Source of the DNA: an uncultured Haloferula sp.
GTDB taxonomy: Bacteria > Verrucomicrobiota > Verrucomicrobiia > Verrucomicrobiales > Akkermansiaceae
Assembly: GCA_965652295.1 (NCBI GenBank)
Contig: CBFGTS010000002.1
Coordinates: 256,001 to 320,000, forward strand
DNA: 64,000 bases
Reading direction: 5' to 3'
Shown: positions 33,098 to 47,652 of the stretch, in pieces
Numbering within the stretch: position 1 is the first letter of the stretch
How the letters are laid out: each line of letters opens with the position of its first letter
Notes under the pieces: generated by a model
Databases searched by the model: none
Seen by the model: only the letters and a program-made list of their open reading frames with translations
What the model was told of the DNA's origin: nothing
Position numbers and translations under genes: made by a program

Positions 33098-33167
33098 GAT
33101 GGATGGGATATTTTGAGGCTGCCGGGTGCGGTTTCTATGCATTTCCATCCTATTCATCCCATCCATC
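33098..33167. repeat. Inverted repeat at left edge of island
   Basis: gatggatggga (33098-33108) / tcccatccatc (33157-33167). Confidence 0.5.
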
Positions 33168-33294
33168 CTGAGAACCATTTTTGTTCCAAGCAGGGCCCGG
33201 CTCGCTCCCTACTGGAGGAGCCCTGACTACCAGCCAAGTGATCTTACTGCTTGACTTGAAACCCGCCTGTTATCCATCAATTGAATAACAACGG

Positions 33295-33939
33295 ATGCAA
33301 CTTCATTACGTCACCAACAAAAGCCACACACGCCTCGAAAAAGACTACTTTCTCCCCAGCCTTCCGGAAGGACTTGTCCCGGTCGAACATGTTTGCTCGA
33401 TTTCCAACGACAGCGGAACCTTCATGAGTTCTGATTTCCTGGAAGTCATCCGCTGGAAAATCAGACAGGTCCTTCAATCACTCGACACCAACGAGGTTCA
33501 GGTGTGGTCGGATGTCGATATCGTCTTCAACTCCTCCCATACGAGAATCGTGCATGAGCTGCAGGGCATGGTGGCGGGAGGCAAGCCACCTCTGGCTTTC
33601 CAACAGGAACACGCCGGCAACCATCGTTTGATCAATGCAGGATTTGTCATCATCCGACCGTGCCCCGAAGTCCGGAATTTCTACCGGATCGTCGATAAAC
33701 TCCTCTCCCTTTCACCCAACAAACACGATCAAGACATCATCAACGATATTTTTCTCGGCGGGGAGTATCTCCACAGCCTCTACGCAACCCTCCCTCCGAA
33801 CTTGTACGCCGCTGAATCCAATCGCGGCCTCGCGCCGGGAAGCCGAATCTACCACGCCAACTGCACCGGGCGTGTCGAAGACAAATATCAGCTACTCGAA
33901 AAAGCCCGCGCCTGTTTCCATAGCATCACGCCACCTTAA
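33295..33939 (+). CDS. Putative nucleotide-diphospho-sugar transferase (GT77/PF03407-like)
   Basis: VWSDVDIVF (DxD), INAGFVII, HDQDIIN, IYHAN; no TM or signal peptide. Confidence 0.75.
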   Translation: MQLHYVTNKSHTRLEKDYFLPSLPEGLVPVEHVCSISNDSGTFMSSDFLEVIRWKIRQVLQSLDTNEVQVWSDVDIVFNSSHTRIVHELQGMVAGGKPPLAFQQEHAGNHRLINAGFVIIRPCPEVRNFYRIVDKLLSLSPNKHDQDIINDIFLGGEYLHSLYATLPPNLYAAESNRGLAPGSRIYHANCTGRVEDKYQLLEKARACFHSITPP

Positions 33940-33967
33940 AACCAAGCGGATCTCGGAGCACAGGCTG

Positions 33968-34564
33968 TCAGCCGTCGTCAGCAACTCCCTCCCTCCAGAT
34001 CGCAAGCACCCGCGGGTCTCCCTTAATCTCTGAACGCAAGTACTCGTCGGGTTCTCCGAGAAATCTGTCGCAGCAGCTCCGCTCCCAATCGCGCTCGTAA
34101 TCATGCACGAGCACCGCCGCCCCTGAGCGGGCCCGAAACTCGGCCGCAGCGTAGATGCTCTCCTCACGTCCGGGATGACCCGCAGCGTACCCCCGGGGCC
34201 CGTCGACAAGGATTGCATTCCAATCTCGATTCAGATGCTCGATTTGCTTCAGGATCGTGTCGGGATGATCAAGAGGAAACCCTATGCAGCCCCGGTAGGA
34301 CACTTGGATCGTCTCTACCTCACCGTGATGGACCCATTCCGGATCGTCCTCCAAGATGGTAAGGTGTCTGGTGACCTTTTCCCAAAAAGGAGCATCGAAT
34401 CCAGCTCCAAAGACCAACATGTTCCGGTCCCTGACGATACCGGCAACGCGCGCGTATTAATGCGGCGTCATGCTGACTTCGCTCCGGTCTTGGCAAAGTT
34501 TCAGGAACGTCATGAGCTGGACCTCGAATGATTCCATTGGGCTTGGGCTGGATGATTCCTTCAT
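33968..34564 (-). pseudogene. DUF579 (IRX15/GXM-like) glycan O-methyltransferase interrupted by an in-frame TAA at 34457-34459
   Basis: NMLVFGAGFDAPFW, LEDDPEW, WNAILVDGPRGY..HPGREESIYAA, VLVHDYER..E...RFL; frame continues across the stop (MTPH*YARVAG); the 33968-34420 part could restart at MLVFG. Confidence 0.7.
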
Positions 34565-34603
34565 GCATTCTTCAGGAGATTCACCTTCTAAAACGAGGCG
34601 ACA

Positions 34604-34854
34604 CGCTGGCTCGCGAGGTTGTAGCCTTGCTTGATCTGTTCGATCTCCCCCGACCCCTTCAGCCAACGCATGTTCCAGTGCGCCCGAAACGGTCCCAGCC
34701 GATGTAGGGGACCCCCGCATCGCCGCCGTTCTGGCCGTTGGCGCTGATATAACTCAGCTTCACCCCCGGGTGGGCGTAATTGATTTCCACGGAACGATTC
34801 AAGCCCACGTATTCGTAGGCCGCAAGAACGGAAAGATCATCGGTCCGAAGACGC
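34604..34854 (-). repeat. Degenerate ~250-nt copy of an internal Rhs core segment (37272-37523); orphan Rhs fragment
   Basis: Manual alignment gives about 20 substitutions and one 1-nt deletion; encodes RLRTDDLSVLAAYEYVGLNR...GWDRFGRT. Confidence 0.9.
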
Positions 34855-35037
34855 CCAGCGGAATCCCGGGCCTTTCCAGGCGAGGGCCGGGTGTTGAAAC
34901 GTTCGGATGAATGATCACGATCTACTTTCGGGGGCTCTCGCGACAAGAAGCTCCGAGCCGAAACTTGGCATCATTCCCGGATGGCTCGATCATTGCGGTT
35001 GGCTGAAACTATTGGTCGCGTACAGTCCACTTGTAAA

Positions 35038-35559
35038 TTACTTGTCGAAATCTTGATGGGAGCCTCTGTTCTTAATTTTTCCCCGCAACTCGTTTGCCCA
35101 TCGATTTAAATCAGTCCACCATCGGTCCAAATCGGAAGCTCCGTCGATGAAACCAAAACATTCAAAATAGGCATCAATTGCATTTTTTTGATTTTCGCTC
35201 AATCGAACATATCGGTTTGAAGGACCATTTTTTTTAATCAGACAATCCTCCCACCATGCTCGAAAATTCTCCATCCATGTTGCGGTAACGCAATCATAAT
35301 TTTCAAGAGCATACTCTGCAAGAGCAGGCATAAAATACCTTCGCCCATTCGAACTAAGCAAATCCATAAATAGCAATGCCCTTTCATCTTTGCATCTTCC
35401 TTCCACCACATCCTCCCGACTTAATGTTTGCAGGAATTTCTCACCTTCCAAGGACAAAACGCCGCTAACGCTCGTCATTCCTTCTCCAATTGGACGTTCG
35501 CAATCCGAAAAACTTTCTTTCATTTTGCGAATTACTTCTAAATTCGAAATTGCGCTCAT
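35038..35559 (-). CDS. Probable cognate immunity protein of the Rhs toxin (DUF6714-like)
   Basis: AT-rich 173-aa ORF 40 nt downstream of the Rhs stop, same strand; LS..G.RYFMPAL motif. Confidence 0.7.
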   Translation of the reverse strand: MSAISNLEVIRKMKESFSDCERPIGEGMTSVSGVLSLEGEKFLQTLSREDVVEGRCKDERALLFMDLLSSNGRRYFMPALAEYALENYDCVTATWMENFRAWWEDCLIKKNGPSNRYVRLSENQKNAIDAYFECFGFIDGASDLDRWWTDLNRWANELRGKIKNRGSHQDFDK

Positions 35560-35599
35560 TCTATATTAAAAAATCTCTGACCAGGATTTAGGTACACTT

Positions 35600-38500
35600 T
35601 CACCAAATATCTTTATACAAATCTTGCACAGATTCCTCCTCTCCACAGCACTTTTTGAGTACCACCTCACCACATTTTTTGATTTGATTGGCAGTTCGCC
35701 CCAAGGGCTCTTGGTGGTTCTTGTTGCCACTACCCCAGGGAATCTGATCACAATTCATTGCCATGTATATTGAACGGTTTGCGTTCTCCAAAAGAGCCTT
35801 ACCCATTTTCGCTAAGGCCTCCTTGCATGAGTCCGTTGGACTGCAACCAGAGCTTTTATTACTATCATATTTCTTATAAGCTTCTCTGCAGCTTGCAACG
35901 CGTTTGGCTCGAGCGAGCACTTCAGTAGCATCCCGTCCCTTTTTAATCCAGTCCATTACCTTATCTTTATCAATGCCGGGAACACCATCGATGGCATCAC
36001 TGGCCTCATCAACCGCTGATCGAGCAGCATGTATGGCTCTTGCCCTATTAAAGGCTTCAGATGCTTCGCTGGAAGGTGGATAGTGGGTCGGAACTCTAGC
36101 TTCAAGGGCGTCTGCCCACTTTTCACCGGCCTTGTATCCAAGGTATCCTGCAGCTGGGACTGCAGCCACCCCAGCGGCAACTGTTGCACCGGCTCCTGCT
36201 GCAGCCGCACCTGCGCTGACTGCAGGGAGAGCAATTGTACTCAGCCCGTACTGATCATTCTGGTTAGCCGGCGAATTTTCCACGAATCTGTAAATATTAA
36301 CTCCGCCCTCTTCCCCAATAGGATCCCTGCTCAACCACCTCCCAAGGAACACGTTCAAATACCGGAATCCAAAGTTGTAGTAGCCCGTCTCCCCATCCCG
36401 GAACTGCGCCTTGTAAAGCACTTCCCAATCGTAAGCACTCTCCACCCGCGCATCAAAGCTCCCGCTCAGGAACCTCACATCGCCAAACGCGCTATAACCG
36501 TACCGCTCGACCACTACTCCCGCAGCGTTGGTGATGCCCGTCACGTTGTAGTAGTCATGCAGCGCGTAGTGCGCCTCGGTCACGGGCGTGGTGGAGCCGC
36601 CGCCACCGCTGCTTCCGCTTGACGAGCCGGAGGACGACGAAGGAGGCTCGGGCGTGTGCGTCCACAGCCGCCGCACCAGATCGTCCCGGTAGCGGATGCC
36701 CCAGTCGTAGGTCTTCGACGGTTCGATGGAGCTGCCTTCGCGCTCTTCGACCGGACGCCACTGCTGGTTGTAGTAGCTGTGCGTCACCTGGCCATTAACT
36801 GTTTTGGTGGTGCGGCGGAACAGGCCGTCGTAGTCGTAGCGGATGGTGTCGCCACCACCGGTCACCGTGCTCAGGCGGTTCCATGCGTCCCACTTCAGGA
36901 TCTGCCTGATCGACCAGTTGCCACCGGCCGAGGGCGGGCATTTGGTGACATTCCCTGAGGCGTCGTGGCTCATCCAGGTGCTCGACGGGCTGCCGGGTGG
37001 GTAACCGATCTGGGTGATCTGGTTGGAGGTGTTGTGCACCCGGTCCTGATTGAAGGTCGGGCTGCCGTTCTGGAAGACCTTGTAGTTCTCCCAGTTGCCG
37101 ATCGGATCGTAGTCGAAGGCCTCACCACGGAGCGGCACACCTCCGATGGCGTCGCGGTTCTCGTTGAGCGTCCCGCGCTGACGGCCCACCAACTGCCTCA
37201 GGCCGTCGTACTGGTAGCACTCGTCCTCCTTGGCCAGCGCTGCGGTGGCCACCGGGTTCTCGCGCCACGTCCGCTGGCTCGCCAGATTGTAGCCGTACTT
37301 GATCTGCTCGATCTCCCCCGCGCCCTTCAGCCAACGCATGTTCTGGGTGCGCCCGAAACGGTCCCAGCCGATGTAGGGGTCCCCCGCATCGCCGCCGTTC
37401 TGACCGTTGGCGCTGATGTAACTCAGCTTCACCCCCGGTTGGGCATAATCGATTTCCACGAAACGATTCAAGCCGACGTATTCGTAGGCCGCAAGAACGG
37501 AAAGGTCATCGGTCCGGAGGCGCTCGATCCGCCCGAGCTTCCAGTTCGCTGCCGTAGCGGAACCGTAAACGTAGTCCAGTCTCCGCGCCGAGGGATAAGT
37601 GATCCGGGTCGGCAGGATCCGGTTGTTGAAGCCACTATGGTAGCTGTAGGCAACCTTGGGCGTGCTGCCGGTGACCGCTCCACCGTGGGCCTGCCGGTCA
37701 GCCTCCACCTGGCTCCACGGCGTGTATTCGAAGGCGACCTGGTTGGCGACCGACCCTGCTCCCACCGTGGCGCTGGTGTGGCTGGTGACCTGATGAGGTT
37801 GCCCCTTGGGGGTGTAGGTGGTGCTGATGCGCCGGATCGCGCCATCGATACCCGATGCCAGCGTCGTCACCCGGTCCTGGGTCAGGCGGCCCAGAAGGTC
37901 GTAGTCATACTCGTGCACCGTCGAATTCGGGTCCTCATATCGGACGACCTGCGACTGCCAATTGTAGCGGTACTGGTACTTCCCGTTGTCGGGCATCTGC
38001 TTCTCCTTGAGCAGGCGGTTGCTCGCGAGATCCACACCCGGGGTGCCGCTCACGCCGTAGATCCAATCGGTCACCTCATCGGTCAGCGTGCCGCCGACCC
38101 TCACGGCATTGACCAGCGTCAGCTTCTTGAGCTGGGAATCCGCGTGGTACTGGTAACGGGTGGTCCGGCTTTCGTCGTCGCTGCTGGGACTGGCCTTGTA
38201 GTTCTCGATCAGTTCGGTGCGGCGCCCCATCGCGTCTTCCTTCCAGATCGATTCGATGCCCTGCGGATCCACCATGCCCGAGGGGTCGCCATCGGCCGCG
38301 AAGTTGTAGGTCGTCACCAGCACGGTGCCGCCGCTCGCCGGCGGCTGGGCCGGGCGCACCAGATCGGCTCCGCCGTGGGTGCCGTAATCGGCTTCTTTCC
38401 TCCTCCGCCCGATCCCATCGGACCAGTAGGCGGTGTAGGAGCGTCGTCCTTTTGCCGTACCTACCGGCGCGTTGGGCCCGCCCAAGGGCCCCTTGCCTAC

Positions 38501-41500
38501 CGTCGAATGAAATCGCTCGGTGCGCGCGTACACGGTCAGATTGCTCGCCGGATCGTAAGTGTAGTCCTCCTGTTCATACACCTCATCCCAAGTCACGTCG
38601 TTGGGCGGATTGGTCCCGCCGCCGCCGGTTTCGCCCGACGAACCTCCTCCGAAGAAGGTGTAGCCTCGGCCAATTCTTGAACTCGTATTTTCCGAGGTGA
38701 ATTTCTGGCTGCTGGTCATCGGATAGATCGACATCCCGGACCCGGAGGCATGCGAACCGTAATCATACGACTCCAAAATGAGGGGGATGCCGAGCCTGCC
38801 GTCAGAGACCGTGACCTTCCGCAGCAAATTCGGTCCAGCAGGGTCGGTCGGCGGGTTGTACGTGTAACGCTTGACCTCGCCCTCGCCATCCTTGAGACGG
38901 ACAATGAGATCGCCCGTCGCTTCGGTCGGCGAAACCACCACCGGCTCCGTGAGCATCTCGCCGTTCACCGCGGCCGAGCTTGCGCGGAGCGTGGTGAGGA
39001 AGGCGCTGTTGAACTGACGAAAGCGGTACCAGCGGGCTCCGTTGGAGGTCTGCTCCAGGATGGAGAGAATGGTTTTGCCGCCGGGGTTGCTGTAAATGAT
39101 CTTCTTGTTGCCGTCCGGCCGGGTCTCGACGGTCTTGACCGCCCACGTGTTGACCTGGAAGAGGCTGGGATTGGCGGTGTTCCGGAAATACTGGTAGCCG
39201 TACGGCTTGGCTCCTCCCTGCACCTTCTCCAAGGTGACCCGCCGCTCATCGTCGTACTCGAAGTAGTAATCGCTGTAAGGCTCGAGTTCGGCATCGGTGA
39301 GTAGTTCCGGATCCTCGCCATCCGCCGTCAGCCTGCGGCACCCCTGCGGCCCGACCACGAACTTCAGGCCGTGGAGAAAGCCCTTGGACTCCCCCGTTTC
39401 ATAGTAGCGGTAGAAATTCCGCCGGATTTCCTGGAACGCCGTGCCATTCCACTCTTCCACGATCACGTGCTTGAGGTCGCCCTCCGTGCCTCCGCTCTCA
39501 CCGCTCACGTAGTAGTTGTAGCGGACCCGGCGCAACACCGTGCCGTCCATAATCTGGGTGATCACGGACATCAGGCCGGCTTCTCCCCCGGTGGTATGAT
39601 AGTCGTAGTCAAAGGACACCGTCCGCGTGCCGTCCGACCACGTCACCAGATCCACGCGACCGTCGCCATAGTAGGTCACCAGGCCCTCGTTGCCATACCG
39701 GTTGCTGAATTTCCAGATCTTGCCCCGGAGGTTCTCCGACGCTCCCTGCCCGTAGTAGGTTTTCCTGCTGCCGTCCCCGAGCTCCAAGGTGACCCCATCC
39801 GTGTTGCTCACCAGGCGGCTGCGTCCGCCGAACTGGTTGTCCGCCACACCACCGCTGAAAGGAGCGAACCATTCGCTGGTGTCGGCTCCGGTGACCACCA
39901 CCGACATCTCGCCGGACTCTCCCTGGCCGGTTTGGAAATGGGACAACTGTTCGGAGAGCCAACGCGCCCCGTTGTAGCCGGTGCCGTTGCCGTTCATCCC
40001 ATTGGAGTAGCTGCGCTTCTGCCCCCAGCGAAATCCCAAGCCTTTCCAGGCGAGGTCCTCCACTTCGTACAGCAGCTCGCCGGTGAAATACCTCACCGGG
40101 TTGTTGCTAGCCTCATCCTGGTTGCAAGAAGCATCACCGTCCGATCCATTTTCGGTTCCGTTCTCGCTTGAGGTCTCACTGACCCCGCCACCCTGCCCGC
40201 CGCACTTGCACCGGGGAGAGGCGGGTTGGCCATAGGATGAGCCTGCGGAACCGCTGCTCCAACCACTGCCCGAGGAACCGCCACTGCCCGAGGAACCGCC
40301 ACTGCCCGAGGAACCGCCGCTGCCCGAGGAACCGCCGCTGCCCGAGGAGCCACCACTGTCCGAGGAGCCGCCGCTGTCCGAGGAGCCGCCGCTGTTCGAA
40401 GAGCCGCCGCTGTCCGAAGAACCGCCGCTGTCCGAGGAGCCACCGCTGGATGAATCCGAGCTGCCGCTGGAACCCGGGTCGGGCGGCTCGTCCGACGACG
40501 AAGAGCCGTTGGTACTTCCCGAGCTGGGCGGGCCAGGAGGAGCCTCTCCTTCCAAGACGACGTAGCGGGCTTTGTTGCGCTCCACTCCGTCATAGAGATA
40601 CTTCACCGCGGCGTCTGTGTTCGGGCCCGTTTCTTTGATCAGATTCCCGCTCGCGTCATACCAGCGGCGGGTTTCGAGGGCTGCTGCGGTCAGCTCCCCC
40701 GTGGTTTCATCCGCACCCTGCACTTCCTCAAGGTACACCTGGCCCTGCTCGTTGTAGTGAGTGACCTGGCGTCCCAGATAATGGCCGGCCCCGACTTGAT
40801 CCCGATAGCGCACCACTTCGGTCAATTGACCCTGCCGGTCGTGTACGTAGGTCGTGAGCAGATCCACGGTCCCGTCGGTCGTCTGGCTCAGCCTCAGACG
40901 GTCACGGAAATCATACTCCATGATCTCGATCCGGTCTTCCGCATCGTCCGAACTGACCTTCCGCGTCACCCGGGTCAGGTTCCCATTTCCTCCCGGCACC
41001 CCGTTGTCGTACTCGTATTCCTCCACCGGGAGCATGTTGTTGGAAGTGCTTGAGCCTCCCGCCGGATCGGAATCGGTCGCGCCGTCGTCGTCGGTGCCCA
41101 CCCACTTCGAGGTCACGAGCCCGCGCGCATCATAGACACTCCGGGTGATGGTTCCCGTCTCGTCCTTGACCCGGACAAGACGGTCCATTTCGTCGTATTT
41201 GTATTCAACGAGTTCGTAGTTGTCGTGCTGCGTTCCCTCCCCGCTGTCCGGGATCTTGTGGTAGATCTTCCTGCTCAGCAGCTTGCCCCAAGGGTCGTAG
41301 TGGTTGGTCGTCCACTTCCTGCGGTTGGAGTAAGCTTTGAGGTTCGAGGCTTCACTGGGAGAAAGAGGGCCGTTGTTCGACTGCCTGACGGCACCGATTT
41401 CCTCCACCACCCGTCCAAACGCGTCCGTGCGCGTGATCGTCACCAAGCCGACCGTCGTGTAGTCGTAGGAACTTCCCGATGCCACCGCGTAGCCGCGCGC

Positions 41501-41911
41501 TTCCCAACGCTCCAAGCTCGGGTCGAAATAGAGATAAAGCTGCACCTGCCGGACCTCCTCCACGACATCCATCACCTCGTGGGGCGGCCCCATTTCAACG
41601 AGAATCCGCCCGAGGTCATCGCGTTCGTAAAGCGTTTCCAAATTCAAGCCTCCGCCAGCCGGGGTGACCCAATTGCCGGGAGCGCCATCCCCATACGGTG
41701 ACGACGTATCCACATCCTCCACCCTCCGCGTCAGGGCACCGGTCAGCGGATCATACTCGTAACTGGTGATGAAGCCACGGGGGGACTTTTCCCAGTTCAG
41801 ACGACCGGACACTCCGAACACCTGCTGCACCTGATCCTGCACCCCGGTTCCTCCTGACCCGGGCGAAACCAAAGGCATCGAAATCCACTTCTCTTGAATC
41901 TGGTAACTCAT
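35600..41911 (-). CDS. Rhs/YD-repeat polymorphic toxin (~2100 aa) with internal DUF6531-like motif, Ser/Gly linkers and Cys-rich C-terminal toxin domain
   Basis: Many YD/YxYD..GR repeats; core end YYNFGFRYL...[34 protein letters not shown]; GC drop after the core; start placed at MSYQIQEK. Confidence 0.93.
   Translation of the reverse strand: [2103 protein letters not shown]
40232..40447 (-). repeat. 18-bp coding tandem repeat, 12 units (10 x SGGSS[D/N/G] + SGWSSG + SAGSSY)
   Basis: Units such as ccgaggaaccgccactgc repeated in tandem within the Rhs gene. Confidence 0.92.
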
Positions 41912-41947
41912 TTGCTTTAAATCGGTTGAAATCAAAAATCTCCGTTT

Positions 41948-43012
41948 TCAGGCTGCCGAGGAGCTCCTCAGCTCGGCGCATCCCATGGTTCCTTCATTCA
42001 GGGCATGGGCGAACAAACCGTTGAAAGGGTAGCCGATCAGCTCATCGAGCTTCGCTTGACCCACATCCAGCACCGAACTGGACCAGCACGATCGCACCCT
42101 GCCCATCGGAATGGCCTCGTGTGAAATCCCCGGCACCAATTGCATGTCCATTGCTTCGCGCGCGATCAGCTGAAGCCACTTGCGCAGCTCCTCGTCACTT
42201 CCCACGCACGCATCGAGACCGATGTCCTCAAGGGTTCCTTCCTTCAGGTTGTTGCCGAAATGCACGAACTGCTTCAGCCGCTCCGCATCGTGCGAGCCCG
42301 GCTCCACCACAACGAAAGGCAGCCGCGAACTGAACCCGGAGAAATTCCACCACAGGCGAGGGTTGGTGCGTCCTGAAATGTTGCTCGAACCGGCTTCCTG
42401 GCCCGCCATCCACCACGTGGGCGCATAGGTCCGCCATCTTCCGGCCTCATGCGCCAACCCAAGCTGGTGGTCGATATGCCACCCGCCCCTCGCGATGTAG
42501 TCCGGCGCATAGCAGACGTGCTGCTGAAACTCCACCATGGCCCGCCGGTGCAGCGCGAACGCGTGGGTCCGGTTCACATTCGCGCAGCGAAACACGTAAG
42601 AGCTGCCGAGCACAGGATCGGGATCGCGCAGGTGCTGGCCACCCAGATAGATCTGCCCCCAGTCCCCGGGAACCTCGTGCATCAACCGCCAGAGAAGCTC
42701 CGGCGAGCGCTCGTGGAACACCACGTCATCCTCCAGAACCAGATAATTATCAATGCCATCCATGATCGCATCCTGGACGATTCTGACATGCGTCTGAAGA
42801 CATCCCCAGGCTCCGTTCCCGCCCTTGAAATACGCCGGCGGGGGACTCCAATCGCCCGACAGGGCACGGACCCAATGCAACCGGCTCACGTCCGCAATAT
42901 CCACTTCCGCCAGATGCTTCTCCAGTCTCGCGCGACGATCCTTCTTATAGGGAAGGTTGATCACGTACACCCGCTCGAAGTAGTCCGTAAGCCTTCCTCT
43001 TCTTGACATCAT
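41948..43012 (-). CDS. GT25-family glycosyltransferase with ~130-aa C-terminal extension
   Basis: VYVINL...DRR, GAWGCLQTH, LVLEDDV, THAFAL, HIDHQL, AGQ...SSNI; stop lies 36 nt before the Rhs ATG. Confidence 0.8.
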   Translation of the reverse strand: MMSRRGRLTDYFERVYVINLPYKKDRRARLEKHLAEVDIADVSRLHWVRALSGDWSPPPAYFKGGNGAWGCLQTHVRIVQDAIMDGIDNYLVLEDDVVFHERSPELLWRLMHEVPGDWGQIYLGGQHLRDPDPVLGSSYVFRCANVNRTHAFALHRRAMVEFQQHVCYAPDYIARGGWHIDHQLGLAHEAGRWRTYAPTWWMAGQEAGSSNISGRTNPRLWWNFSGFSSRLPFVVVEPGSHDAERLKQFVHFGNNLKEGTLEDIGLDACVGSDEELRKWLQLIAREAMDMQLVPGISHEAIPMGRVRSCWSSSVLDVGQAKLDELIGYPFNGLFAHALNEGTMGCAELRSSSAA

Positions 43013-43148
43013 GCTCCACCCTCTATTGGACTTCGCTGCGTAGTGGCAAGAGTTTTTGATGAAGCCACTGAGATTTCATCATCCTGACCCACCACCATCA
43101 CCTCGGCACAAGCCCGCCGTCTTCCTCATAACTCTCGATTTATCAATC

Positions 43149-44051
43149 ATGTTTGAAAGTTACAAAATTGTTGCAGTCACCTGCTACGGGCGCCGCCGCT
43201 ACACCGAGCTTTTGACCCGCTACACCCGCAGCTGCCCCCTCATCGACACCCATCAGCTTTGGATCAACACCCGGAACCCCGACGATCTGGCAGAAGCGGA
43301 GCTCTACTGCAAGCAAGACCCTGGATTCTTCGAGCTCGTTCATTGTGAAGTGCCTTACGACCAGCTTTCCGGGTCGCACCGGCTCGCCTGCTTCTATCCT
43401 CTGCTCCCCTCCGCTCCGGACACCATCTACCTCCGGTTTGACGACGATATCGTCTGGATGGCGGACGACGCCGTTGAAAAGCTTCTAACCGCGAGGTTGG
43501 CAAACCCTCTGCCGCTCCTTGTGTACGCCAACACGATCAACAACTCGCTTTGCTCGCACCTCCATCAACGCCGGGGAGCACTGCCAGCGGTCCCGCACCT
43601 TGAATACGACTGCCTCGGCGCGAATTCCTGGCGAAACGCCGAAACCGCGAAGGTGATCCATCGCCTCTTCCTCGATCGTTTGGAATCCGGAGAACCCCCG
43701 ACGGACTTCCTTTTCGACAACCATTCCCTGGAATCCTACCAACGATGCTCCATCAACTGCATGGCTTGGTTCGGACGCGACAATCACGCCCTGAGATCCG
43801 GCGTCGCCCGGGACGAGGAGCACGAGCTTTCCTGTGTCATCCCGAGGCTGCTATGCCGGCCGAACCTCATCGCAGGCGATGCTTTGGTCAGTCACTTCGC
43901 CTACCACACCCAGAGGGCGTCGTTGGAACAGGATTCCTCGTTCCTCGAACGATACCGGGCTCTTGCGCCACCCCGGGCACCTGCCGGTCCTCGTCCGAAA
44001 CCTCGGAACCATCCCACGCTCCCTCTTCGTCGCGAAAGCGCCGCCGCCTGA
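43149..44051 (+). CDS. Putative GT-A-fold glycosyltransferase (orphan family)
   Basis: YGRRRY, IYLRFDDDIVW, VYANTINN, CSINCMAW, DEEHELS, VSHFAYHTQR; start placed at MFESYK. Confidence 0.6.
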   Translation: MFESYKIVAVTCYGRRRYTELLTRYTRSCPLIDTHQLWINTRNPDDLAEAELYCKQDPGFFELVHCEVPYDQLSGSHRLACFYPLLPSAPDTIYLRFDDDIVWMADDAVEKLLTARLANPLPLLVYANTINNSLCSHLHQRRGALPAVPHLEYDCLGANSWRNAETAKVIHRLFLDRLESGEPPTDFLFDNHSLESYQRCSINCMAWFGRDNHALRSGVARDEEHELSCVIPRLLCRPNLIAGDALVSHFAYHTQRASLEQDSSFLERYRALAPPRAPAGPRPKPRNHPTLPLRRESAAA

Positions 44052-44096
44052 GAGGGGCGATCCCCGTGTCATTCGTTCATTCTGTCTCCATCCATC

Positions 44097-45551
44097 ATGC
44101 AACACGTCGTCGTCCAGCAGCACCGGGGAGCCCGAACCTACCAATTCACCCACTGCTACGAAAACCGGGGCGAGGCGGTTCGCAACCTCGTCGAGGACAC
44201 GGTCGAGCGGTTCAATATCCGCGATGATTTCGAATTCTCGGTCTGCACCGAGGACCACTCGCATCCCGGCTGCGACTACCACTTTTCGGTCAGAAAGGGC
44301 GAGTATGCCGTCTCCTTTCCGCAGTTCCTTTTCGATGGCTGGCCGCATTGCGGGATCGCTAACTACGAGGAGGTCCGGAAATCGCTCACCGATGGTCCGC
44401 CGGACAGCAACAAGCTGGGATGGATCGGCAATCCCACCACTCATTGGAGACGCCGCAAGTTTCTGAACGATTTCTCCAACGCTGATTTCGCCGAAGGCAT
44501 TTCCAACATTTGGAACACCAGGGAAAGGGACGCTCAGTGGAGGAACACGCCGACCTACCTCTCGCTTCCCCAACAGATACAGCGCTGGAAATACCTCCTC
44601 GACATTGAAGGAGTCGGCTGGTCAGCCCGCCTCCCTCTTCTCCTGTCCTCCCCCAGGATCGTATTCATCGTCGAGCGGGACTGGGTGGAATGGTGGCATG
44701 AGCACTTGGTGCCGTGGAAGCATTTCGTTCCAATCGATCGCGATCTATCTTCGCTCGAAGAGGCCTACCACGCCGTCGAGTCGGACGAGGCACTCCAGAA
44801 GCACATTTCGCTCCATCAACGTGAATTCGCCCTGCGGCACCTCACCCGCGATGCGGCCCTTGAGCGGATCCGGCACCTTCTGTCGCAACGACTACAACCG
44901 CCGAGCGCCAAGGCGGCCACGTCCAAGAACGGTCAACCGCGAAGGAACCGGCTTACTCCTCGCAGCGTCGACACACGGGTCCGCTCGTGGAAAGATGTGC
45001 TGGAAGAGCAAGCCAAACCCTTCCGACTCGTCGTCGCATCCTACTCGGAGAATCTGGATTGGACGCAGGCGGTCCAAGGGCGTGTTTGTATTTATGATGC
45101 CTCGGGTCGATCTGATTTTCCGGGGGCCATCCCAATCGAGAACCGGGCAAGGGAAGCCAGCCAATACCTGCACCACATCATCACCCACTACCCTGATTTC
45201 CACGAGTGGGAGATCTTCGTGCAGGGAAACCCCTTCGATCACTGCAACGATCCCATCCTCCGTGGTGAGCCATTGCCGGAGAACTGGACACCTTTTCAGC
45301 CCTTGGGAAGAATGGCGGTGTTCAATCCACACCACTGTGCGCACGACCGGTTCGCGGCGCAATTCGCGCGCGAATGGTTCGGTGGGATACCGCGCAACCT
45401 CCACTGGGTGGTCGGCGCGCAGTTCGCGGTTCACCGGAAGGTGATCTTGAACCGCTCCCTCAGCTATTGGCAACGCCTTCATGCCAAGACCTGTGAGGAA
45501 CACAAAACGTCGCCATGGGCTTTGGAGCGCCTCTGGTTCCGGATTTTCTGA
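44097..45551 (+). CDS. GT90 (CAP10/POGLUT-like) glycosyltransferase fused to a DUF3431-like domain
   Basis: KLGWIGN, LSL.QQ..WKYLLDIEGVGWSARL..LL, EWW...LVPWKHFVPI; then VVASYSENLDW, N.AREA.QYLHHII..Y, FVQG.PFDH, GAQFAV.R..I, LERLW..IF. Confidence 0.8.
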   Translation: MQHVVVQQHRGARTYQFTHCYENRGEAVRNLVEDTVERFNIRDDFEFSVCTEDHSHPGCDYHFSVRKGEYAVSFPQFLFDGWPHCGIANYEEVRKSLTDGPPDSNKLGWIGNPTTHWRRRKFLNDFSNADFAEGISNIWNTRERDAQWRNTPTYLSLPQQIQRWKYLLDIEGVGWSARLPLLLSSPRIVFIVERDWVEWWHEHLVPWKHFVPIDRDLSSLEEAYHAVESDEALQKHISLHQREFALRHLTRDAALERIRHLLSQRLQPPSAKAATSKNGQPRRNRLTPRSVDTRVRSWKDVLEEQAKPFRLVVASYSENLDWTQAVQGRVCIYDASGRSDFPGAIPIENRAREASQYLHHIITHYPDFHEWEIFVQGNPFDHCNDPILRGEPLPENWTPFQPLGRMAVFNPHHCAHDRFAAQFAREWFGGIPRNLHWVVGAQFAVHRKVILNRSLSYWQRLHAKTCEEHKTSPWALERLWFRIF

Positions 45552-45605
45552 CCCACCGTCCTCCTCATTCGCCGGGTTGGAAGCCCCGGATCAGCTCCCG
45601 CCACC

Positions 45606-47258
45606 ATGAATTTCGCGATCATTCTCCACGGGCTCGTTCACCGGAGCCTTCCCCTCGTCGCCAGCAGCTTCAACGACAACCTCCTGAACCCGTTGCAGCC
45701 GCTCGGTTCCACCGACGTTTACTTCCATTCATGGGATACGGACCGGCTCGACAATCCACGGACAGGCGAGAATGACGTCCGCATCGAGCCTGGCTCGATC
45801 GACCGGTTTTTGGGAATGGCACAAGGTCGTCTCGAATCTCGATCGGCTTTCGACGCCACCATCGATTGGCAACCTTTGCTCGAGAGAAACCCGATGCGTC
45901 ACTGCACCGATAGTGAGGCAGCCGCACGAGTCACCTTGATGAACTACGTTCGGTCCCTCGAATCGCTACGCCGAGCATGGGAAATCTACCTGGAGAGGCG
46001 TGAAGTCCGACACGACTGGATCATCGTCACCCGGGCAGATCTCCGCTTTCTCCACCCTGTCTTTCTCCCAACTCTGGATGCCGGATTTTGCCCACCACCG
46101 GGAAGAGCCGACAGCGCCCCCCAAGACTCCACTCTCTGGGTCCCCGCATTTCAGGATTGGGGAGGTTTCAATGACCGGTTCGCGATCGGGCGGGAGCGGG
46201 AAATGGCAACCTATTCCCGCCGCTTTGATTTTGCCTTGCAATGGATCCGGGAAGGAAAAGGAGGGAATCCCCAAAGAATCCTGAAGCACTACCTTGAGTC
46301 GAAGGCCATTTCGACCCAGCAGATCGACCTCGCTTTCCAACGGGTCCGCGCCACAGGAGAAATCGCAGGATTCGACCGCGAGCTGAGTCCTGCCGACATT
46401 CCAGCGCCTGAACCTGCATCTTCCACAAAGAAGCAGCACCGAACCCACATTCCTGAATCCTTCGGCGACGCCATGGGCAAAACTCCACCGCAAACCCGGG
46501 ATCGATTCATCGTTCTCGCTCGTGAAGCCGGCCCGGCTGCCGGAAAGCTCGCGCGGATGTTGGCATACTGGGGAAAGGCGGAGATCGTCATTGATCGAGT
46601 AGAGGACCCTCCACCGTGCCCGGCCCCGTCTTCCCACGAGCCGGAGATCGTGTGGATCCCAGATGCCGAAGCCCGGGGGTTCGAGGGGCTGATGAGCGAC
46701 TCCGGTCCTTTCCCTGCCGTGACCGCTTGGTCCCGGGCTCTCGCTCACCTCAACCGCACCCTTTCAGACGGAGAATCGGTCTGGTTCGTTGAAGACGATG
46801 TCGCAGGGGACACGGAATCCTTCGACTGCCTAATCCGGCAAACCCAGGCATCGCTGCCCGATCTTGCCGCAACCACCATCAGGAGGCAGCAAGAAGACCC
46901 GGACTGGCCCTACTGGGGTTACTGTGAGGAGTTCTTCGACCATCATGTCCGCGCGTTCCAACCTCTATGCCGTCTGAGTTCACGCCTAATCCGGAAGGCA
47001 CTCGATTTTCGCGCACAACACGGGAGGTTCACCTTTCACGAGGTTCTTTTCCCCTCCGTCGCTCTCGAGCATTCCATGAGCCTCTTCTGCTGGGAAGATC
47101 ATCCCAGCCTGAAGCCCCTGCTTCACTCATTCCAGTATCGCCCCCTCGTCTCATCGATCTCCCGTGGGATCAGTCATCCCGTAAAGGACTCTTCAACCCT
47201 CTCAGCGATCTGCGATCTTCCATCCCCAAAGATGACTGTCTCTGGATGCGTCAGTTGA
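45606..47258 (+). CDS. Two-domain putative glycan-modifying protein (two GT-like domains)
   Basis: Domain 1: AIILHG..RS, DVYFHSW, DWIIVTRADL, GFNDRFAIG. Domain 2: TAWSRAL, VWFVEDDV, CRLS.RL, FHEVLFPS, HPVKD. Confidence 0.55.
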   Translation: MNFAIILHGLVHRSLPLVASSFNDNLLNPLQPLGSTDVYFHSWDTDRLDNPRTGENDVRIEPGSIDRFLGMAQGRLESRSAFDATIDWQPLLERNPMRHCTDSEAAARVTLMNYVRSLESLRRAWEIYLERREVRHDWIIVTRADLRFLHPVFLPTLDAGFCPPPGRADSAPQDSTLWVPAFQDWGGFNDRFAIGREREMATYSRRFDFALQWIREGKGGNPQRILKHYLESKAISTQQIDLAFQRVRATGEIAGFDRELSPADIPAPEPASSTKKQHRTHIPESFGDAMGKTPPQTRDRFIVLAREAGPAAGKLARMLAYWGKAEIVIDRVEDPPPCPAPSSHEPEIVWIPDAEARGFEGLMSDSGPFPAVTAWSRALAHLNRTLSDGESVWFVEDDVAGDTESFDCLIRQTQASLPDLAATTIRRQQEDPDWPYWGYCEEFFDHHVRAFQPLCRLSSRLIRKALDFRAQHGRFTFHEVLFPSVALEHSMSLFCWEDHPSLKPLLHSFQYRPLVSSISRGISHPVKDSSTLSAICDLPSPKMTVSGCVS

Positions 47259-47652
47259 TAGATCGAGGGCATCACGGCTCCATTTGGCACGCATCAGATG
47301 AACATGGATCTCTTGCACAGAGAAACGCAGAGGATTGAGACGATCCCTCGACCTCAACTCTTCCACGATTTCGTCACCACTTCAGCTGCCAGGGGGGAAA
47401 GAAGAGCGGCGGAATGTGTCCGCCGTGAGTGGTCCCTGTCGGCTGTCTTTCCCGGTGACTCCCGGCGAACGCGTTTCGCCGCTCCTTTTAGCGATCCGCG
47501 ATCTCCCCCTCCTGCCGAGCGAGTTCGCGGCGAATTCGTTGTCATCCGGAGGCTGACGGATAGAGAATCGAACCAAGGCGTTATCTAGGATGCCGGAGGT
47601 CCTCTTCGACTCAAAAGATTGACCCAGCGTGAACGTTGAGGGATCACAAGCC

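What the first reader, a model, noticed from the sequence alone, without database searches (positions are those of the whole stretch)
33295..47258. Candidate new system: Rhs toxin/immunity pair embedded in a dedicated glycosylation and methylation island
Seen in sequence: a GT25 gene ends 36 nt before the Rhs ATG and leads the minus-strand run GT25 > Rhs > immunity > Rhs fragment > DUF579 methyltransferase. Diverging from it are an orphan DDD-motif GT, a GT90-DUF3431 fusion and a two-domain GT-like protein. A GT77-like transferase closes the left end. None has an evident signal peptide or TM helix. No Wzx/Wzy/Wza/ABC exporter, priming transferase or nucleotide-sugar synthesis gene is present, so this is not a normal EPS/LPS cluster. 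The Rhs carries three Ser/Gly-rich tracts. Established knowledge: these families contain protein- or glycoprotein-modifying enzymes (GT90 POGLUT/Rumi on Ser, GT25 COLGALT on collagen, GT77 extensin arabinosyltransferases, DUF579 GlcA 4-O-methyltransferases), and cytoplasmic serial O-glycosylation of Ser-rich repeats is known for streptococcal SRR adhesins. Inference: the island builds a methyl-capped O-glycan on the Ser-rich loops of the Rhs cage (for protection, targeting or export). I am not aware of this being described for Rhs toxins.
Basis: partly seen in the sequence, partly recalled or inferred. Interest (0 to 1): 0.88.

Follow-up and report, generated by a model that had tools for sequence, protein, structure and literature searches.

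The report
Glycosyltransferase islands beside Verrucomicrobial Rhs toxins
A bacterial Rhs toxin gene with long serine-rich stretches sits in an island of sugar-adding enzymes, and the same pairing recurs in many related genomes, which suggests, without proving it, that the toxin itself is sugar-coated.

Summary
A low-GC island (about 33.2-47.6 kb) between housekeeping genes carries the genome's only full Rhs gene. With it are a GT25-like gene ending 36 nt before the Rhs ATG, GT90-DUF3431, a PF03407 transferase, a DUF579-like gene (possibly truncated) and two unassigned GT-A-like genes. No exporter, flippase or priming transferase was found.

The pairing is not local chance. Rhs lies beside the GT25 gene in 10 of the 12 closest loci. 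Of 23 Rhs loci chosen without regard to GT25, 15 have other glycan enzymes within 6.5 kb, against 2 of 13 control loci.

Ser-rich tracts occur in nearly all full-length members of this Rhs family.

Two new points emerged:
- The window's Rhs has a transposed core, B-A-C instead of A-B-C. Two of the three S/G tracts sit exactly at the junctions.
- The only other (GGSS)n protein in the genome lies in a second cluster of paralogous GTs.

Best reading (about 0.5): cytoplasmic O-glycosylation of the Rhs tracts. The main rival is a flippase-independent LOS-type surface-glycan island. No glycan has been shown.

The parts
33295..33939 (+). PF03407 Nucleotid_trans (GT77-type) transferase, 214 aa, at the left end of the island
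   Evidence: Pfam E 9.1e-9, 36 bits against a cut-off of 22. No TM-like segment.
33968..34420 (-). DUF579/GXM-like methyltransferase ORF, 150 aa, possibly truncated. An in-frame TAA at 34457-34459 separates it from an 87-aa ORF in the same frame.
   Evidence: PF21729 E 1.2e-15, but only profile positions 112-176 of 189. TIGR01627 scores 54.5 bits against a cut-off of 149.85. Translation and DNA. Read-through with TAA=X barely raises the score, 58 to 60.3 bits.
34644..34856 (-). Orphan Rhs core fragment, degenerate, with one TGA inside
   Evidence: 80% identity to Rhs aa 1471-1541, E 2e-30. ORF 34659-34946 seen.
35038..35559 (-). 173-aa ORF directly downstream of the Rhs toxin end; putative immunity protein, inferred from position
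   Evidence: Weak DUF6714 match, E 9.8e-6, 26.1 bits against a cut-off of 27. No NCBIfam match.
35600..41911 (-). Rhs polymorphic toxin. The ORF runs from the TTG at 41935; the likely start is the ATG at 41911. It is the only full Rhs in the genome.
   Evidence: PF05593, E 4.6e-8. TIGR03696 Rhs core domain at aa 1814-1898, 53.8 bits against 32.5, and TIGR01643. Single full copy in G000. 48-53% identical orthologue in G005 with a different C-terminal toxin.
40556..41908 (-). Rhs segment B (aa 10-460). It corresponds to the middle third of standard relatives but is placed first here.
   Evidence: blastp against 5 standard Rhs, e.g. L038 aa 512-957. AF2 strands with pLDDT above 90.
40229..40528 (-). 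S/G tract 1 (aa 470-569: 49 Ser, 33 Gly), at the B/A junction, followed by a CKCGG motif
   Evidence: 18-nt tandem array at 40266-40448. Predicted disordered, pLDDT below 50.
38714..40126 (-). Rhs segment A (aa 604-1074). It is the N-terminal third of standard relatives and includes a DUF6531-like plug at aa 612-670.
38612..38653 (-). Gly-rich tract 2 (aa 1095-1108), at the A/C junction
   Evidence: pLDDT below 50 at model residues 1091-1101, which are ORF aa 1099-1109.
36242..38659 (-). Rhs segment C (aa 1093-1898), ending in the Rhs core domain and the ...DQYGL motif
36584..36649 (-). Ser-rich tract 3 (aa 1763-1784). Relatives carry S-rich inserts of up to about 400 aa at the same site.
   Evidence: L074, L075 and L080 have gaps between standard aa 1603 and 1613. 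G005 carries a longer tract at the same site.
35603..36241 (-). C-terminal toxin domain (aa 1899-2111), unassigned. It starts with an Ala/Gly-rich hydrophobic stretch.
   Evidence: No Pfam or NCBIfam match. Diverges from G005 directly after the core. KD19 of 1.58 at aa 1908.
41948..43012 (-). GT25-like glycosyltransferase, 354 aa, ending 36 nt before the Rhs ATG
   Evidence: PF01755. Invariant E94-D95-D96 in 18 homologues. AF2 pLDDT 90. Best Foldseek matches are Mimivirus R655 and human COLGALT1. Beside Rhs in 10 of 12 closest loci.
43149..44051 (+). Unassigned GT-A-like protein with an RFDDDIV motif. The ORF runs from the TTG at 43056, but homologues align from the Met at 43149.
   Evidence: No Pfam match. 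Sequence. Homologues sit beside Rhs/GT25 in L033 (51% identity) and in the second GT cluster of the same genome (53-60%). Atlas leads are viral hypothetical clusters and a DUF707/GT2-named cluster.
44097..45551 (+). GT90 + DUF3431 fusion, 484 aa
   Evidence: PF05686 E 1.4e-21 and PF11913 E 1.3e-12. One paralogue on C1. A GT90 gene lies beside Rhs in L033.
45606..47258 (+). 550-aa unassigned protein. Its C-terminal half (aa about 288-541, with a FVEDDV motif) recurs in Rhs/GT25 islands.
   Evidence: No Pfam match. The C-terminal half is 40-42% identical to neighbours of Rhs in G005 and L028 and to the C1 cluster. Atlas leads only. Sequence.

Best explanation
The island is a substrate-dedicated, cytoplasmic protein-glycosylation cassette for the Rhs toxin. 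Soluble GT-A enzymes have no signal peptide or TM helix and no lipid-carrier machinery. They would add and extend O-linked sugars on the intrinsically disordered Ser/Gly-rich tracts of the Rhs before a T6SS-independent export. The GT25-like enzyme is encoded 36 nt upstream and is probably co-transcribed. GT90-DUF3431, the PF03407 transferase and the two unassigned GT-A-like proteins would act with it, possibly with methyl capping. Different strains carry different GT, methyl-, sulfo- and pyruvyl-transferase sets beside orthologous Rhs genes, so the glycan would be strain-variable.

Shown here: the anatomy; conservation and enrichment of the GT-Rhs linkage; the GT25 fold; predicted disorder of the tracts; no T6SS marker found.

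Inferred: that the Rhs is the acceptor, that Ser is the site, which sugars are used and in what order, and what the glycan is for (protease protection, solubility, export or targeting).
For: (1) Orthologous island in G005, same genus: GT32-like, GT2_5-like, Methyltransf_24, a homologue of the 550-aa protein's C-terminal half, then a divergently transcribed GT25 (61% identity) followed by an Rhs (48-53% identity). The Rhs has the same three tracts but a different toxin, and the island sits in another genomic context beside a recombinase.

(2) Of the 12 genome-contig loci with the closest GT25 relatives (E <= 1e-85), 10 hold an Rhs within 10 kb. One is a 1977-bp contig and one is a prophage. Their other glycan genes vary: GT32, GT34, GT90, GT_PLOD, GT92-like, PF11397 GlcNAc-transferase, sulfotransferases plus APS kinase, pyruvyl transferase, Methyltransf_24.

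(3) Of 23 Rhs loci picked by Rhs similarity without regard to GT25 (one of them, L078, holds a short 238-aa GT25-family ORF), 15 have a GT-type gene within 6.5 kb: GT9, Mannosyl_trans3, GT4, GT2, GT11, GT31/32, LicD, MptE/Maf-like, pyruvyl transferase. In 9 of the 23 it is the immediate 5' neighbour. In 3 more the 5' neighbour is a 640-656-aa Maf-like protein. Control loci in the same genomes give 2 of 13. At gene level the counts are 25 of 173 against 4 of 106. Fisher p is 0.006 and 0.004, but kin are not independent.

(4) In the window's own genome, homologues of 66 such neighbour enzymes hit only 7 places. Only 5 ORFs carry a strong S/G tract, and the two perfect ones are the Rhs and a TAT-signal 112-aa (GGSS)n protein inside the second cluster of paralogous GTs.

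(5) GT25-like genes also sit beside non-Rhs poly-Ser proteins: L058, immediately adjacent, and L087, 6.4 kb away.

(6) The GT25 model (pLDDT 90) matches Mimivirus R655 (E 8e-12) and human collagen galactosyltransferase COLGALT1 (E 4e-11) better than a bacterial beta-1,4-galactosyltransferase (E 6e-8).

(7) The tracts are predicted disordered.

(8) None of the 11 island ORFs scanned matches an exporter, flippase, polymerase or priming transferase family. No VipB/TssC, PAAR or Phage_base_V (a VgrG/spike domain) was found in the 98%-complete genome.
Against: No glycan has been observed, so everything about the acceptor is inference from gene order.

Rhs matches occur in 115 of 201 genomes of the order, but GT25 matches (E <= 1e-20) in only 23. 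The enzyme is therefore dispensable for most family members.

8 of 23 Rhs loci have no recognised GT nearby. Two of these have very long poly-Ser tracts (L069, L076).

GT presence does not follow tract length: L030, L033, L038 and L039 have GT25 but only short N-terminal Ser runs.

GT25, GT9 and LicD are classical LOS/LPS-core families that act in the cytoplasm without a dedicated flippase (recalled). The missing Wzx/Wzy therefore does not discriminate.

Tracts 1 and 2 lie exactly at the junctions of the transposed core, where flexible linkers are needed anyway.

The DUF579-like gene may be truncated.

One close GT25 (L085, 53-54% identical) and the whole 37-45% clade are linked to a Ser/Thr kinase rather than to Rhs.
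Confidence: 0.5

Rival explanations
1. The GTs decorate a surface glycolipid or glycan (LOS/LPS core or similar) at the cytoplasmic face. The decorated product would then be exported by general machinery such as MsbA. The island couples a strain-specific surface glycan to the Rhs toxin, for example for self-protection by receptor masking, kin discrimination or toxin docking. The Rhs itself is not glycosylated.
For: The recurring families include GT25, GT9 (heptosyltransferase family), LicD, GT2 and GT4, plus sulfo-, pyruvyl- and methyl-transferases. These are typical of LOS/O-antigen variation (family roles recalled). The gene content is hypervariable, as in surface-antigen loci. Islands are mobile, with recombinases or integrases in G005, L065, L072, L077, L094, L095 and L103. 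A GT25 relative is carried by a prophage (L037), as seroconverting phages do. GT presence does not follow Ser-tract length.
Against: It does not explain why both (GGSS)n-tract proteins of the genome sit in the two clusters of these rare GTs. It does not explain why GT25-like genes also flank non-Rhs poly-Ser proteins. The GT25 fold is nearer to COLGALT1 and Mimivirus R655 than to the bacterial beta-1,4-GalT. No lipid A/core or O-antigen ligase gene is in the island. Several neighbour families are mainly eukaryotic or viral protein- or glycoprotein-modifying types (recalled): GT90, PF11397, GT_PLOD, GT31/Fringe, MptE/Maf-like.
Confidence: 0.25
2. The GT genes and the Rhs gene are unrelated cargo of the same mobile islands or integration hot spots. 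The GTs act on other substrates, such as other Ser-rich secreted proteins or polysaccharide.
For: The island has low GC. Mobility genes occur in many loci. A second GT cluster exists in the same genome without an Rhs. 8 of 23 Rhs loci have no recognised GT. Most Rhs-bearing genomes lack the GT25 clade.
Against: The adjacency recurs with unrelated GT families and in unrelated genomic contexts. A GT gene is often the immediate 5' neighbour, co-directional or divergent (9 of 23, plus 3 Maf-like). There is a 36-nt gap here and an overlap in L039. Control loci give 2 of 13.
Confidence: 0.12
3. The S/G tracts are only flexible, unmodified linkers. Tracts 1 and 2 bridge the junctions created by the B-A-C transposition of the cocoon. 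Tract 3 is a tolerated loop expansion.
For: All 7 permuted Rhs share the same breakpoints. Each has a 95-273-aa Ser-rich B/A linker and a short (0-69 aa) A/C linker. AF2 gives a single confident body (pTM 0.82) with the linkers disordered. Tandem 18-nt repeats suggest slippage-driven expansion.
Against: Standard (unpermuted) relatives also carry N-terminal poly-Ser leaders from a few residues to more than 90 consecutive Ser. They also carry S-rich inserts of up to about 400 aa at other sites where no topological linker is needed. A Ser bias, rather than Gly alone, is what O-glycosylated linkers typically show (recalled). This reading does not explain the GT linkage.
Confidence: 0.1

Closest known systems
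Serine-rich repeat adhesins (SRRPs) of streptococci and staphylococci, with GtfA/GtfB, further Gtfs and the accessory Sec system
   Same: A large exported protein with long Ser-rich disordered tracts is encoded beside several soluble cytoplasmic GTs with strain-variable extension enzymes. Modification is expected before export (SRRP biology recalled; anatomy here).
   Different: No GtfA/GtfB-type pair and no SecA2/SecY2/Asp genes appear among the island ORFs. The GTs here are GT-A families (GT25, GT90, PF03407). The substrate is an Rhs toxin cage rather than an adhesin stalk. The host is a Verrucomicrobial diderm.
Flagellin glycosylation islands (Maf/MptE-like transferases) and autotransporter heptosyltransferases (BAHT, GT9 family)
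   Same: These are dedicated cytoplasmic O-glycosylation systems for one protein substrate, encoded next to it, with hypervariable gene content. MptE/Maf-like and GT9-family genes are immediate neighbours of related Rhs genes.
   Different: The Maf-like matches are weak: 20.8 bits (L074) and 27.6 bits (L078) against a cut-off of 34.6. The GT9-like proteins gave no PDB sequence match, so closeness to BAHT rather than to WaaC/F is untested. Neither family is in the window's own island.
GT25 enzymes: human COLGALT1 (collagen hydroxylysine galactosyltransferase), Mimivirus R655, and bacterial LOS beta-1,4-galactosyltransferases
   Same: PF01755 match, GT-A fold and an invariant EDD motif. The best structural matches are R655 and COLGALT1.
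   Different: Only 16-23% identity. The TM-score normalised to the query is 0.41-0.46. There is an extra conserved C-terminal region (aa about 215-340) of unknown role. No lysyl hydroxylase is in the island, so a Hyl acceptor is unlikely. Acceptor and sugar are unknown.
T6SS-linked Rhs effectors (RhsA, Tse5, Tse15, RhsP), Tc toxin TcB/TcC and teneurin YD shells
   Same: YD repeats, an Rhs core domain with a C-terminal cleavage-type motif, a variable C-terminal toxin, a downstream small ORF and an orphan fragment. Foldseek finds these structures at E 1e-22 to 1e-12.
   Different: No PAAR, VgrG or TssC in the genome. The core order is B-A-C instead of A-B-C, and global superposition is poor (TM 0.13-0.22). 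There are long Ser-rich tracts and GT neighbours.
LOS/LPS outer-core variation loci (Lgt, Lic2A, LpsA, LicD, Waa heptosyltransferases)
   Same: Clusters of soluble GT25/GT9/LicD-type enzymes without Wzx/Wzy, with strain-variable content (family roles recalled).
   Different: They sit beside and apparently in operon with an Rhs toxin. They are accompanied by eukaryote- or virus-type families (GT90, DUF3431, PF03407, DUF579). No lipid A/core genes are in the island.

Membership tests
Rhs / YD-repeat polymorphic toxin | YD (RHS) repeats | tested here: met
   PF05593 E 4.6e-8, 33.7 bits against a cut-off of 22. TIGR01643, 29.7 bits against 15.8. Foldseek finds Rhs, Tc and teneurin shells at E down to 5e-22.
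Rhs / YD-repeat polymorphic toxin | RHS repeat-associated core domain ending in the cleavage-type motif, followed by a variable toxin | tested here: met
   TIGR03696 at aa 1814-1898, 53.8 bits against 32.5. The core ends ...NQNDQYGL. The sequence after it is unrelated to that of the G005 orthologue.
Rhs / YD-repeat polymorphic toxin | Cognate immunity gene directly downstream | tested here: inconclusive
   A 173-aa ORF lies 41 nt downstream. Its only match is DUF6714, below the cut-off. The immunity role is inferred from position.
Rhs / YD-repeat polymorphic toxin | Collinear shell (plug, then a continuous repeat strip, then the core) | tested here: not met
   The segment order is B-A-C relative to 24 standard relatives. 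The same order occurs in 7 Rhs from 4 families. The protein is still filed as Rhs because all parts are present and AF2 builds one body (pTM 0.82).
T6SS-delivered Rhs effector | PAAR or VgrG linkage and a T6SS in the genome | tested here: not met
   PF05488, PF04717 and PF05943 gave no match in G000 at 98% completeness; the positive controls gave matches.
CAZy GT25 (PF01755) | Family profile match above the curated cut-off | tested here: met
   31.4 bits against 24, but only profile positions 65-114 of 199.
CAZy GT25 (PF01755) | GT-A fold with an acidic metal-binding motif | tested here: met
   AF2 pLDDT 90. Foldseek matches COLGALT1, R655 and a beta-1,4-GalT with probability 1.00. E94-D95-D96 is invariant in 18 of 18 homologues.
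CAZy GT25 (PF01755) | Donor sugar and acceptor | not testable with these tools
   Needs enzymology.
Dedicated protein O-glycosylation system (SRRP, Maf or BAHT type) | Substrate gene with Ser/Thr-rich acceptor tracts adjacent to soluble GT genes | tested here: met
   Recurs in relatives.
Dedicated protein O-glycosylation system (SRRP, Maf or BAHT type) | Homology of the GTs to GtfA/B, Maf or BAHT, or presence of the accessory Sec system | tested here: not met
   No such Pfam family occurs among the window's island ORFs. Maf-like and GT9-family neighbours are found only in other loci, with weak or unresolved matches. The rest of the genome was not searched for SecA2.
Dedicated protein O-glycosylation system (SRRP, Maf or BAHT type) | Glycan demonstrated on the protein | not testable with these tools
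   Needs mass spectrometry.
Wzx/Wzy- or ABC-dependent EPS/O-antigen cluster | Flippase, polymerase, ABC exporter, priming transferase, nucleotide-sugar synthesis genes | tested here: not met
   None found among the 11 island ORFs scanned. LOS-type core extension needs none of these, so it is not excluded.
DUF579 / GXM methyltransferase (PF21729) | Full-length domain | tested here: inconclusive
   58 bits against 27.8, but only profile positions 112-176 of 189. An in-frame TAA lies upstream, and read-through adds 2 bits. TIGR01627 is far below its cut-off.
GT90 (PF05686) + DUF3431 (PF11913) | Both profiles above the cut-off in one polypeptide | tested here: met
   77.3 bits against 24 and 48.4 bits against 25.

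The most novel reading that the evidence does not exclude
A family of Verrucomicrobial Rhs toxins are mucin-like glycoproteins. Hypervariable cytoplasmic GT, methyl-, sulfo- and pyruvyl-transferase cassettes, encoded beside each rhs gene, coat its poly-Ser tracts with a strain-specific glycan. That glycan is needed for T6SS-independent export, surface display or target recognition. A sub-lineage of the family has, in addition, a segment-transposed (B-A-C) cocoon held together by these glycosylated linkers.
Probability: 0.3. Interest if true: 0.85.

Novelty: new variant of a known kind. Interest (0 to 1): 0.72.

Why it matters
Rhs toxins are known as T6SS, Tc or cell-wall-anchored effectors. 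None of my six literature searches of the held library found a paper describing glycosylation of an Rhs by neighbouring enzymes or a non-collinear Rhs shell.

If the linkage reflects Rhs glycosylation, three things would follow. It would add a post-translational layer to polymorphic toxin systems. It would point to a T6SS-independent route in a poorly studied phylum. It would also give a bacterial home for GT families (GT90, GT77-type, DUF579, PF11397, GT25/PLOD-type) otherwise known, as I recall, mainly from eukaryotic and giant-virus protein glycosylation.

The B-A-C Rhs is a natural test of how tolerant the YD cocoon is to changes in strand order. The hypothesis is directly testable in cultured Luteolibacter or Haloferula strains.

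Tried and rejected
- Expression evidence: no RNA holder was listed for window 41000-44000.
- Earlier notes of this scan: nothing near the locus.
- Promoter and terminator scans of 33000-48200 were at chance level: 4 promoter-like sites against 4.7 expected, 14 terminator-like against 13.2. They say nothing about co-transcription.
- I tried to tell whether the GT9-like Rhs neighbours resemble autotransporter heptosyltransferases rather than WaaC/F. phmmer of two of them, of the Maf-like protein, and a 5-sequence profile all gave 0 PDB matches. This stays unresolved.
- Reading the DUF579-like gene through its upstream TAA did not extend the Pfam match. Whether the gene is broken stays open.
- NCBIfam added nothing for the GTs, the toxin or the immunity ORF.
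- ESM Atlas gave only leads for the two unassigned proteins: viral hypothetical clusters, one DUF707/GT2-named cluster and one DUF3405-named cluster.
- Foldseek cannot superpose the permuted Rhs model on solved shells (TM 0.13-0.22). The B-A packing rests on pTM 0.82 alone, because I could not inspect coordinates.
- Complex prediction was not run, because enzyme-substrate pairs are outside what that test resolves.
- The idea that GT25 alone defines the system was rejected: most Rhs loci use other GT families.
- The idea that Ser-tract length predicts GT presence was also rejected.
- Three fetched Rhs loci (L091, L093, L099, all partial Rhs), L071 (no flanks), six GT25-selected loci (L083, L085-L087, L090, L102) and control L117 (dropped for the residue limit) were not Pfam-scanned.
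- The 24 more distant GT25 loci were checked for Rhs only by tblastn, apart from L041, L044 and L058, which were also Pfam-scanned.

Full report
ANATOMY. The window is G000:C2:256001-320000, in a 4.37-Mb genome that is 98% complete. Titles of related records place it in or near Luteolibacter, Verrucomicrobiota. GC is 0.63-0.66 over most of the window and falls to 0.50-0.62 between about 33 and 48 kb. The flanks are housekeeping genes: RF-2, MnmA, MreB, MreC, PBP2, RNase G and a 5'-nucleotidase on the left; GNAT, M20 peptidase and glycogen synthase on the right.

33295-33939(+) is PF03407. 33968-34420(-) is PF21729 (DUF579/GXM). 35600-41935(-) is a 2111-aa Rhs. 41948-43012(-) is PF01755 (GT25). 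44097-45551(+) is GT90 plus DUF3431. 43056-44051(+) and 45606-47258(+) have no family. The first of these carries RFDDDIV and the second FVEDDV. The GT25 stop is 36 nt from the Rhs ATG at 41911. NCBIfam places the Rhs core domain at aa 1814-1898. The genome has this one full Rhs plus a degenerate fragment at 34644-34856. None of the GTs has a TM-like segment. None of the 11 island ORFs matches an exporter, flippase, polymerase or priming transferase family. The three S/G tracts are at aa 470-569, 1095-1108 and 1763-1784, and the first contains an 18-nt tandem array. The DUF579-like ORF matches only the last third of its profile. An in-frame TAA lies 13 codons upstream of its ATG, and reading through it adds almost nothing. 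The gene may be truncated or broken.

IS THE GT-RHS PAIRING MORE THAN LOCAL CHANCE? In G005, another species of the same genus, an orthologous Rhs is again preceded by a GT25 gene (61% identity). This Rhs is 48-53% identical over the core, has the same three tracts and carries a different toxin. Diverging from the GT25 gene are a homologue of the 550-aa protein's C-terminal half, a 955-aa Methyltransf_24 protein, a GT2_5-like ORF and a GT32-like protein. The surroundings are different and include a serine recombinase.

A scan of one genome per species with a GT25 alignment gave 36 loci. Of the 12 with E <= 1e-85, 8 have a window-type Rhs within 10 kb by tblastn. Two more (L035, L036) have a more divergent Rhs, with PF05593 at E 2e-82 in L035 and homology between the two shown. 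L031 is a 1977-bp contig and L037 is a prophage. Of the other 24 loci, only L046 showed an Rhs by tblastn. Those loci were not otherwise screened, except L041, L044 and L058. The 37-45% clade, and also one close GT25 (L085, 53-54% identical), sit in an operon-like arrangement with a Ser/Thr kinase instead.

The other glycan genes in the Rhs+GT25 loci differ from locus to locus. They include GT32, GT34, GT90, GT_PLOD, GT2_4/GT92, PF11397 GlcNAc-transferase, Sulfotransfer_2 with APS kinase, a pyruvyl transferase and Methyltransf_24.

THE CONVERSE TEST. In 201 genomes of the order, 115 have a match to Rhs segment C, but only 23 have a GT25 match at E <= 1e-20. GT25 is therefore not a general partner. 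I fetched Rhs loci chosen by Rhs similarity alone and Pfam-scanned the flanks of 23 of them. Fifteen have a GT-type gene within 6.5 kb: GT9, Mannosyl_trans3, GT4, GT2, GT11, GT31/GT32, LicD, MptE/Maf-like, a pyruvyl transferase, PF11397 or a short GT25. Methyltransferases or APS kinase often accompany them. In 9 of the 23 the GT-type gene is the immediate 5' neighbour. In 3 more (L074, L075, L080) the 5' neighbour is a conserved 640-656-aa protein related to the MptE-like protein of L078. Eight loci show none (L069, L076, L080 by the strict criterion, L094-L098), and several of these are short contigs.

Two of the 13 have GT-type genes. At gene level the counts are 25 of 173 against 4 of 106. 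Fisher p is 0.006 for loci and 0.004 for genes. Related genomes are not independent, so these values overstate the case.

In the window's own genome, 66 such neighbour enzymes find homologues at only 7 places. Two are in this island and two are in a second cluster on C1.

SER TRACTS. Nearly all full-length members of this Rhs family that I read start with a Ser run, in most followed by a Cys motif and the DUF6531-type PVRY segment. The run ranges from 'MSSTTGG' to more than 90 consecutive Ser. GT25 is found beside Rhs with short runs (L030, L033, L038, L039) and beside Rhs with long ones (window, G005, L028, L029, L082, L084). Long-tract Rhs also occur without any recognised GT nearby (L069, L076).

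Two other observations do tie Ser tracts to these GTs. First, a genome-wide scan of G000 finds only 5 ORFs with a strong S/G tract. The two perfect ones are the Rhs and a 112-aa protein with a twin-arginine signal, (GGSS)n and a CKKCG motif. That protein lies inside the C1 cluster of paralogous GTs: GT90, two Branch/GT14 genes, DUF707, and a fusion of the DDD-GT with the 550-aa protein's C-terminal half. Second, GT25-like genes flank non-Rhs poly-Ser proteins in a Tepidisphaeraceae MAG (L058, immediately upstream) and in L087, 6.4 kb away.

A TRANSPOSED RHS CORE. blastp against standard relatives shows that their order is A (window aa 604-1074), then B (aa 10-460), then C (aa 1093-1898). The window's protein is B-A-C. 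Among 29 long Rhs ORFs in the fetched loci, 5 share this order. With the window and G005 that makes 7, spread over 4 families. All 7 have the same breakpoints, a 95-273-aa Ser-rich B/A linker and a 0-69-aa A/C linker. Tract 1 is the B/A linker and looks like the ancestral N-terminal Ser leader of segment A. Tract 2 is the A/C scar. Tract 3 lies at a site where relatives carry S-rich inserts of up to about 400 aa.

AF2 on aa 9-1150, with a 47-row alignment, gives pLDDT 84 and pTM 0.82, with only the two linkers disordered. I take this to mean that B and A form one rigid body, but that is an inference because I could not inspect coordinates. Foldseek finds Rhs, teneurin and Tc shells (E down to 5e-22) but cannot superpose them (TM 0.13-0.22, rmsd 33-41 A). 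That is what a non-sequential topology would give, though the missing segment C could also contribute.

THE GT25-LIKE ENZYME. The AF2 model has pLDDT 90. Its best solved matches are Mimivirus R655 (E 8e-12) and human collagen galactosyltransferase COLGALT1 (E 4e-11 to 1e-10), ahead of a bacterial beta-1,4-galactosyltransferase (E 6e-8). E94-D95-D96 is invariant in 18 of 18 homologues, and a conserved C-terminal region of about 130 aa has no assigned role.

EXPORT. VipB/TssC, PAAR and Phage_base_V (a VgrG/spike domain) are not found in the genome, and the positive controls responded. This Rhs has no signal peptide. The export route is unknown.

READING. The best-supported explanation is a substrate-dedicated cytoplasmic glycosylation cassette acting on the disordered Ser-rich tracts of the Rhs, with strain-variable chemistry (confidence about 0.5). 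The main rival is a flippase-independent LOS-type surface-glycan island functionally or physically coupled to the toxin (about 0.25). GT25, GT9 and LicD are classical LOS families, so the lack of Wzx/Wzy does not discriminate between the two. Hitch-hiking of unrelated cargo (about 0.12) is disfavoured by the immediate, recurrent adjacency across unrelated GT families and genomic contexts. A linker-only role for the tracts (about 0.1) explains tracts 1 and 2 but not the leaders and inserts of standard relatives, nor the GT linkage.

LITERATURE. Six full-text searches of the held library found no paper describing Rhs glycosylation by neighbouring GTs or a permuted Rhs shell. In Zhang et al. 2012 (PMC3482391; I read the passages returned by a term search), glycosyltransferases appear only as toxin domains. 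Subscription journals are not covered, so this is not proof of absence.

VERDICT. I rate it a new variant of a known kind, and the transposed Rhs core is a second, independent novelty.

Noticed in passing
G000 C1:360000-372000 (L025:10054-19264, L026:7527-9683); small ORF L025:16798-17136: A second cluster of eukaryote- or virus-type GTs in the same genome: DUF707, two Branch/GT14 genes, GT90, and a fusion of the DDD-GT with the 550-aa protein's C-terminal half. Embedded in it is a 112-aa protein with a twin-arginine signal, a (GGSS)n tract and a CKKCG motif. No Rhs is present there.
   Followed up: partly
L041:7035-10975, L042, L044:5852-11138, L085:9996-14675: A clade of GT25-like genes (37-54% identical to the window's) lies directly downstream of a roughly 800-1030-aa Ser/Thr protein kinase gene instead of an Rhs. 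In L040 and L041 a 1314-1360-aa protein with an S/G/R-rich C-terminal tail lies upstream.
   Followed up: partly
L037:4542-15275; L102: A GT25-like gene (42% identical) sits inside a prophage-like region with a podophage fibre, an SU10-type portal and an integrase. Another copy, broken by stop codons, lies among phage-like ORFs in L102.
   Followed up: no
L058:1056-4003 (Tepidisphaeraceae MAG): A 622-aa protein with three poly-Ser tracts, each flanked by Cys-rich motifs, lies immediately upstream of a GT25-like gene. It is not an Rhs.
   Followed up: no
L087:17103-18362: A 419-aa protein lies 6.4 kb from a GT25-like gene. Its N-terminal half is almost pure Ser (starting MSSSISSS...), and it has a C-terminal hydrophobic segment with a weak holin-like match.
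   Followed up: no
window 34457-34459: An in-frame TAA separates an 87-aa ORF from the DUF579-like ORF in the same frame. This may be a nonsense-interrupted methyltransferase gene lying next to the degenerate Rhs fragment.
   Followed up: partly
window 35603-36241 (Rhs aa 1899-2111): The unassigned toxin domain begins with an Ala/Gly-rich hydrophobic stretch (AGAAAAGAGATVAAGVAAV). The unrelated toxin of the G005 orthologue also begins with a Gly/Ala-rich hydrophobic region.
   Followed up: no
L083:7601-13885 (G034 C6): A GT25 gene and a 572-aa remnant of a permuted-type Rhs lie next to an M20 peptidase 61% identical to the one flanking the window's island (window 48731-50113). This hints at a shared insertion site in a different family.
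   Followed up: no
G000 C4:53294-60457: A third place in the genome has homologues of Rhs-neighbour enzymes (a GT11/pyruvyl-transferase-type and a sulfotransferase-type). No S/G-tract ORF was detected nearby.
   Followed up: no
L074, L075, L080 (Rhs ORFs): The permuted Rhs of these three loci carry a 330-400-aa insert between standard positions 1603 and 1613, the same site as the window's tract 3. In L080 the insert begins with a poly-Ser run; the others were not read. L075 and L080 also keep a poly-Ser leader in front of segment B.
   Followed up: partly
window 47407-47481: Terminator-like hairpins on both strands lie just after the 550-aa gene, at the right edge of the low-GC island. The scan as a whole was at chance level.
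   Followed up: no
L039:18375-21044, L038:19113-21008, L122-type arrays listed (e.g. G122 C37): Orphan Rhs C-terminal modules, or second Rhs genes, follow the main Rhs in several loci. G122 C37 shows five tandem C-terminal modules, as in classical Rhs displacement arrays.
   Followed up: no
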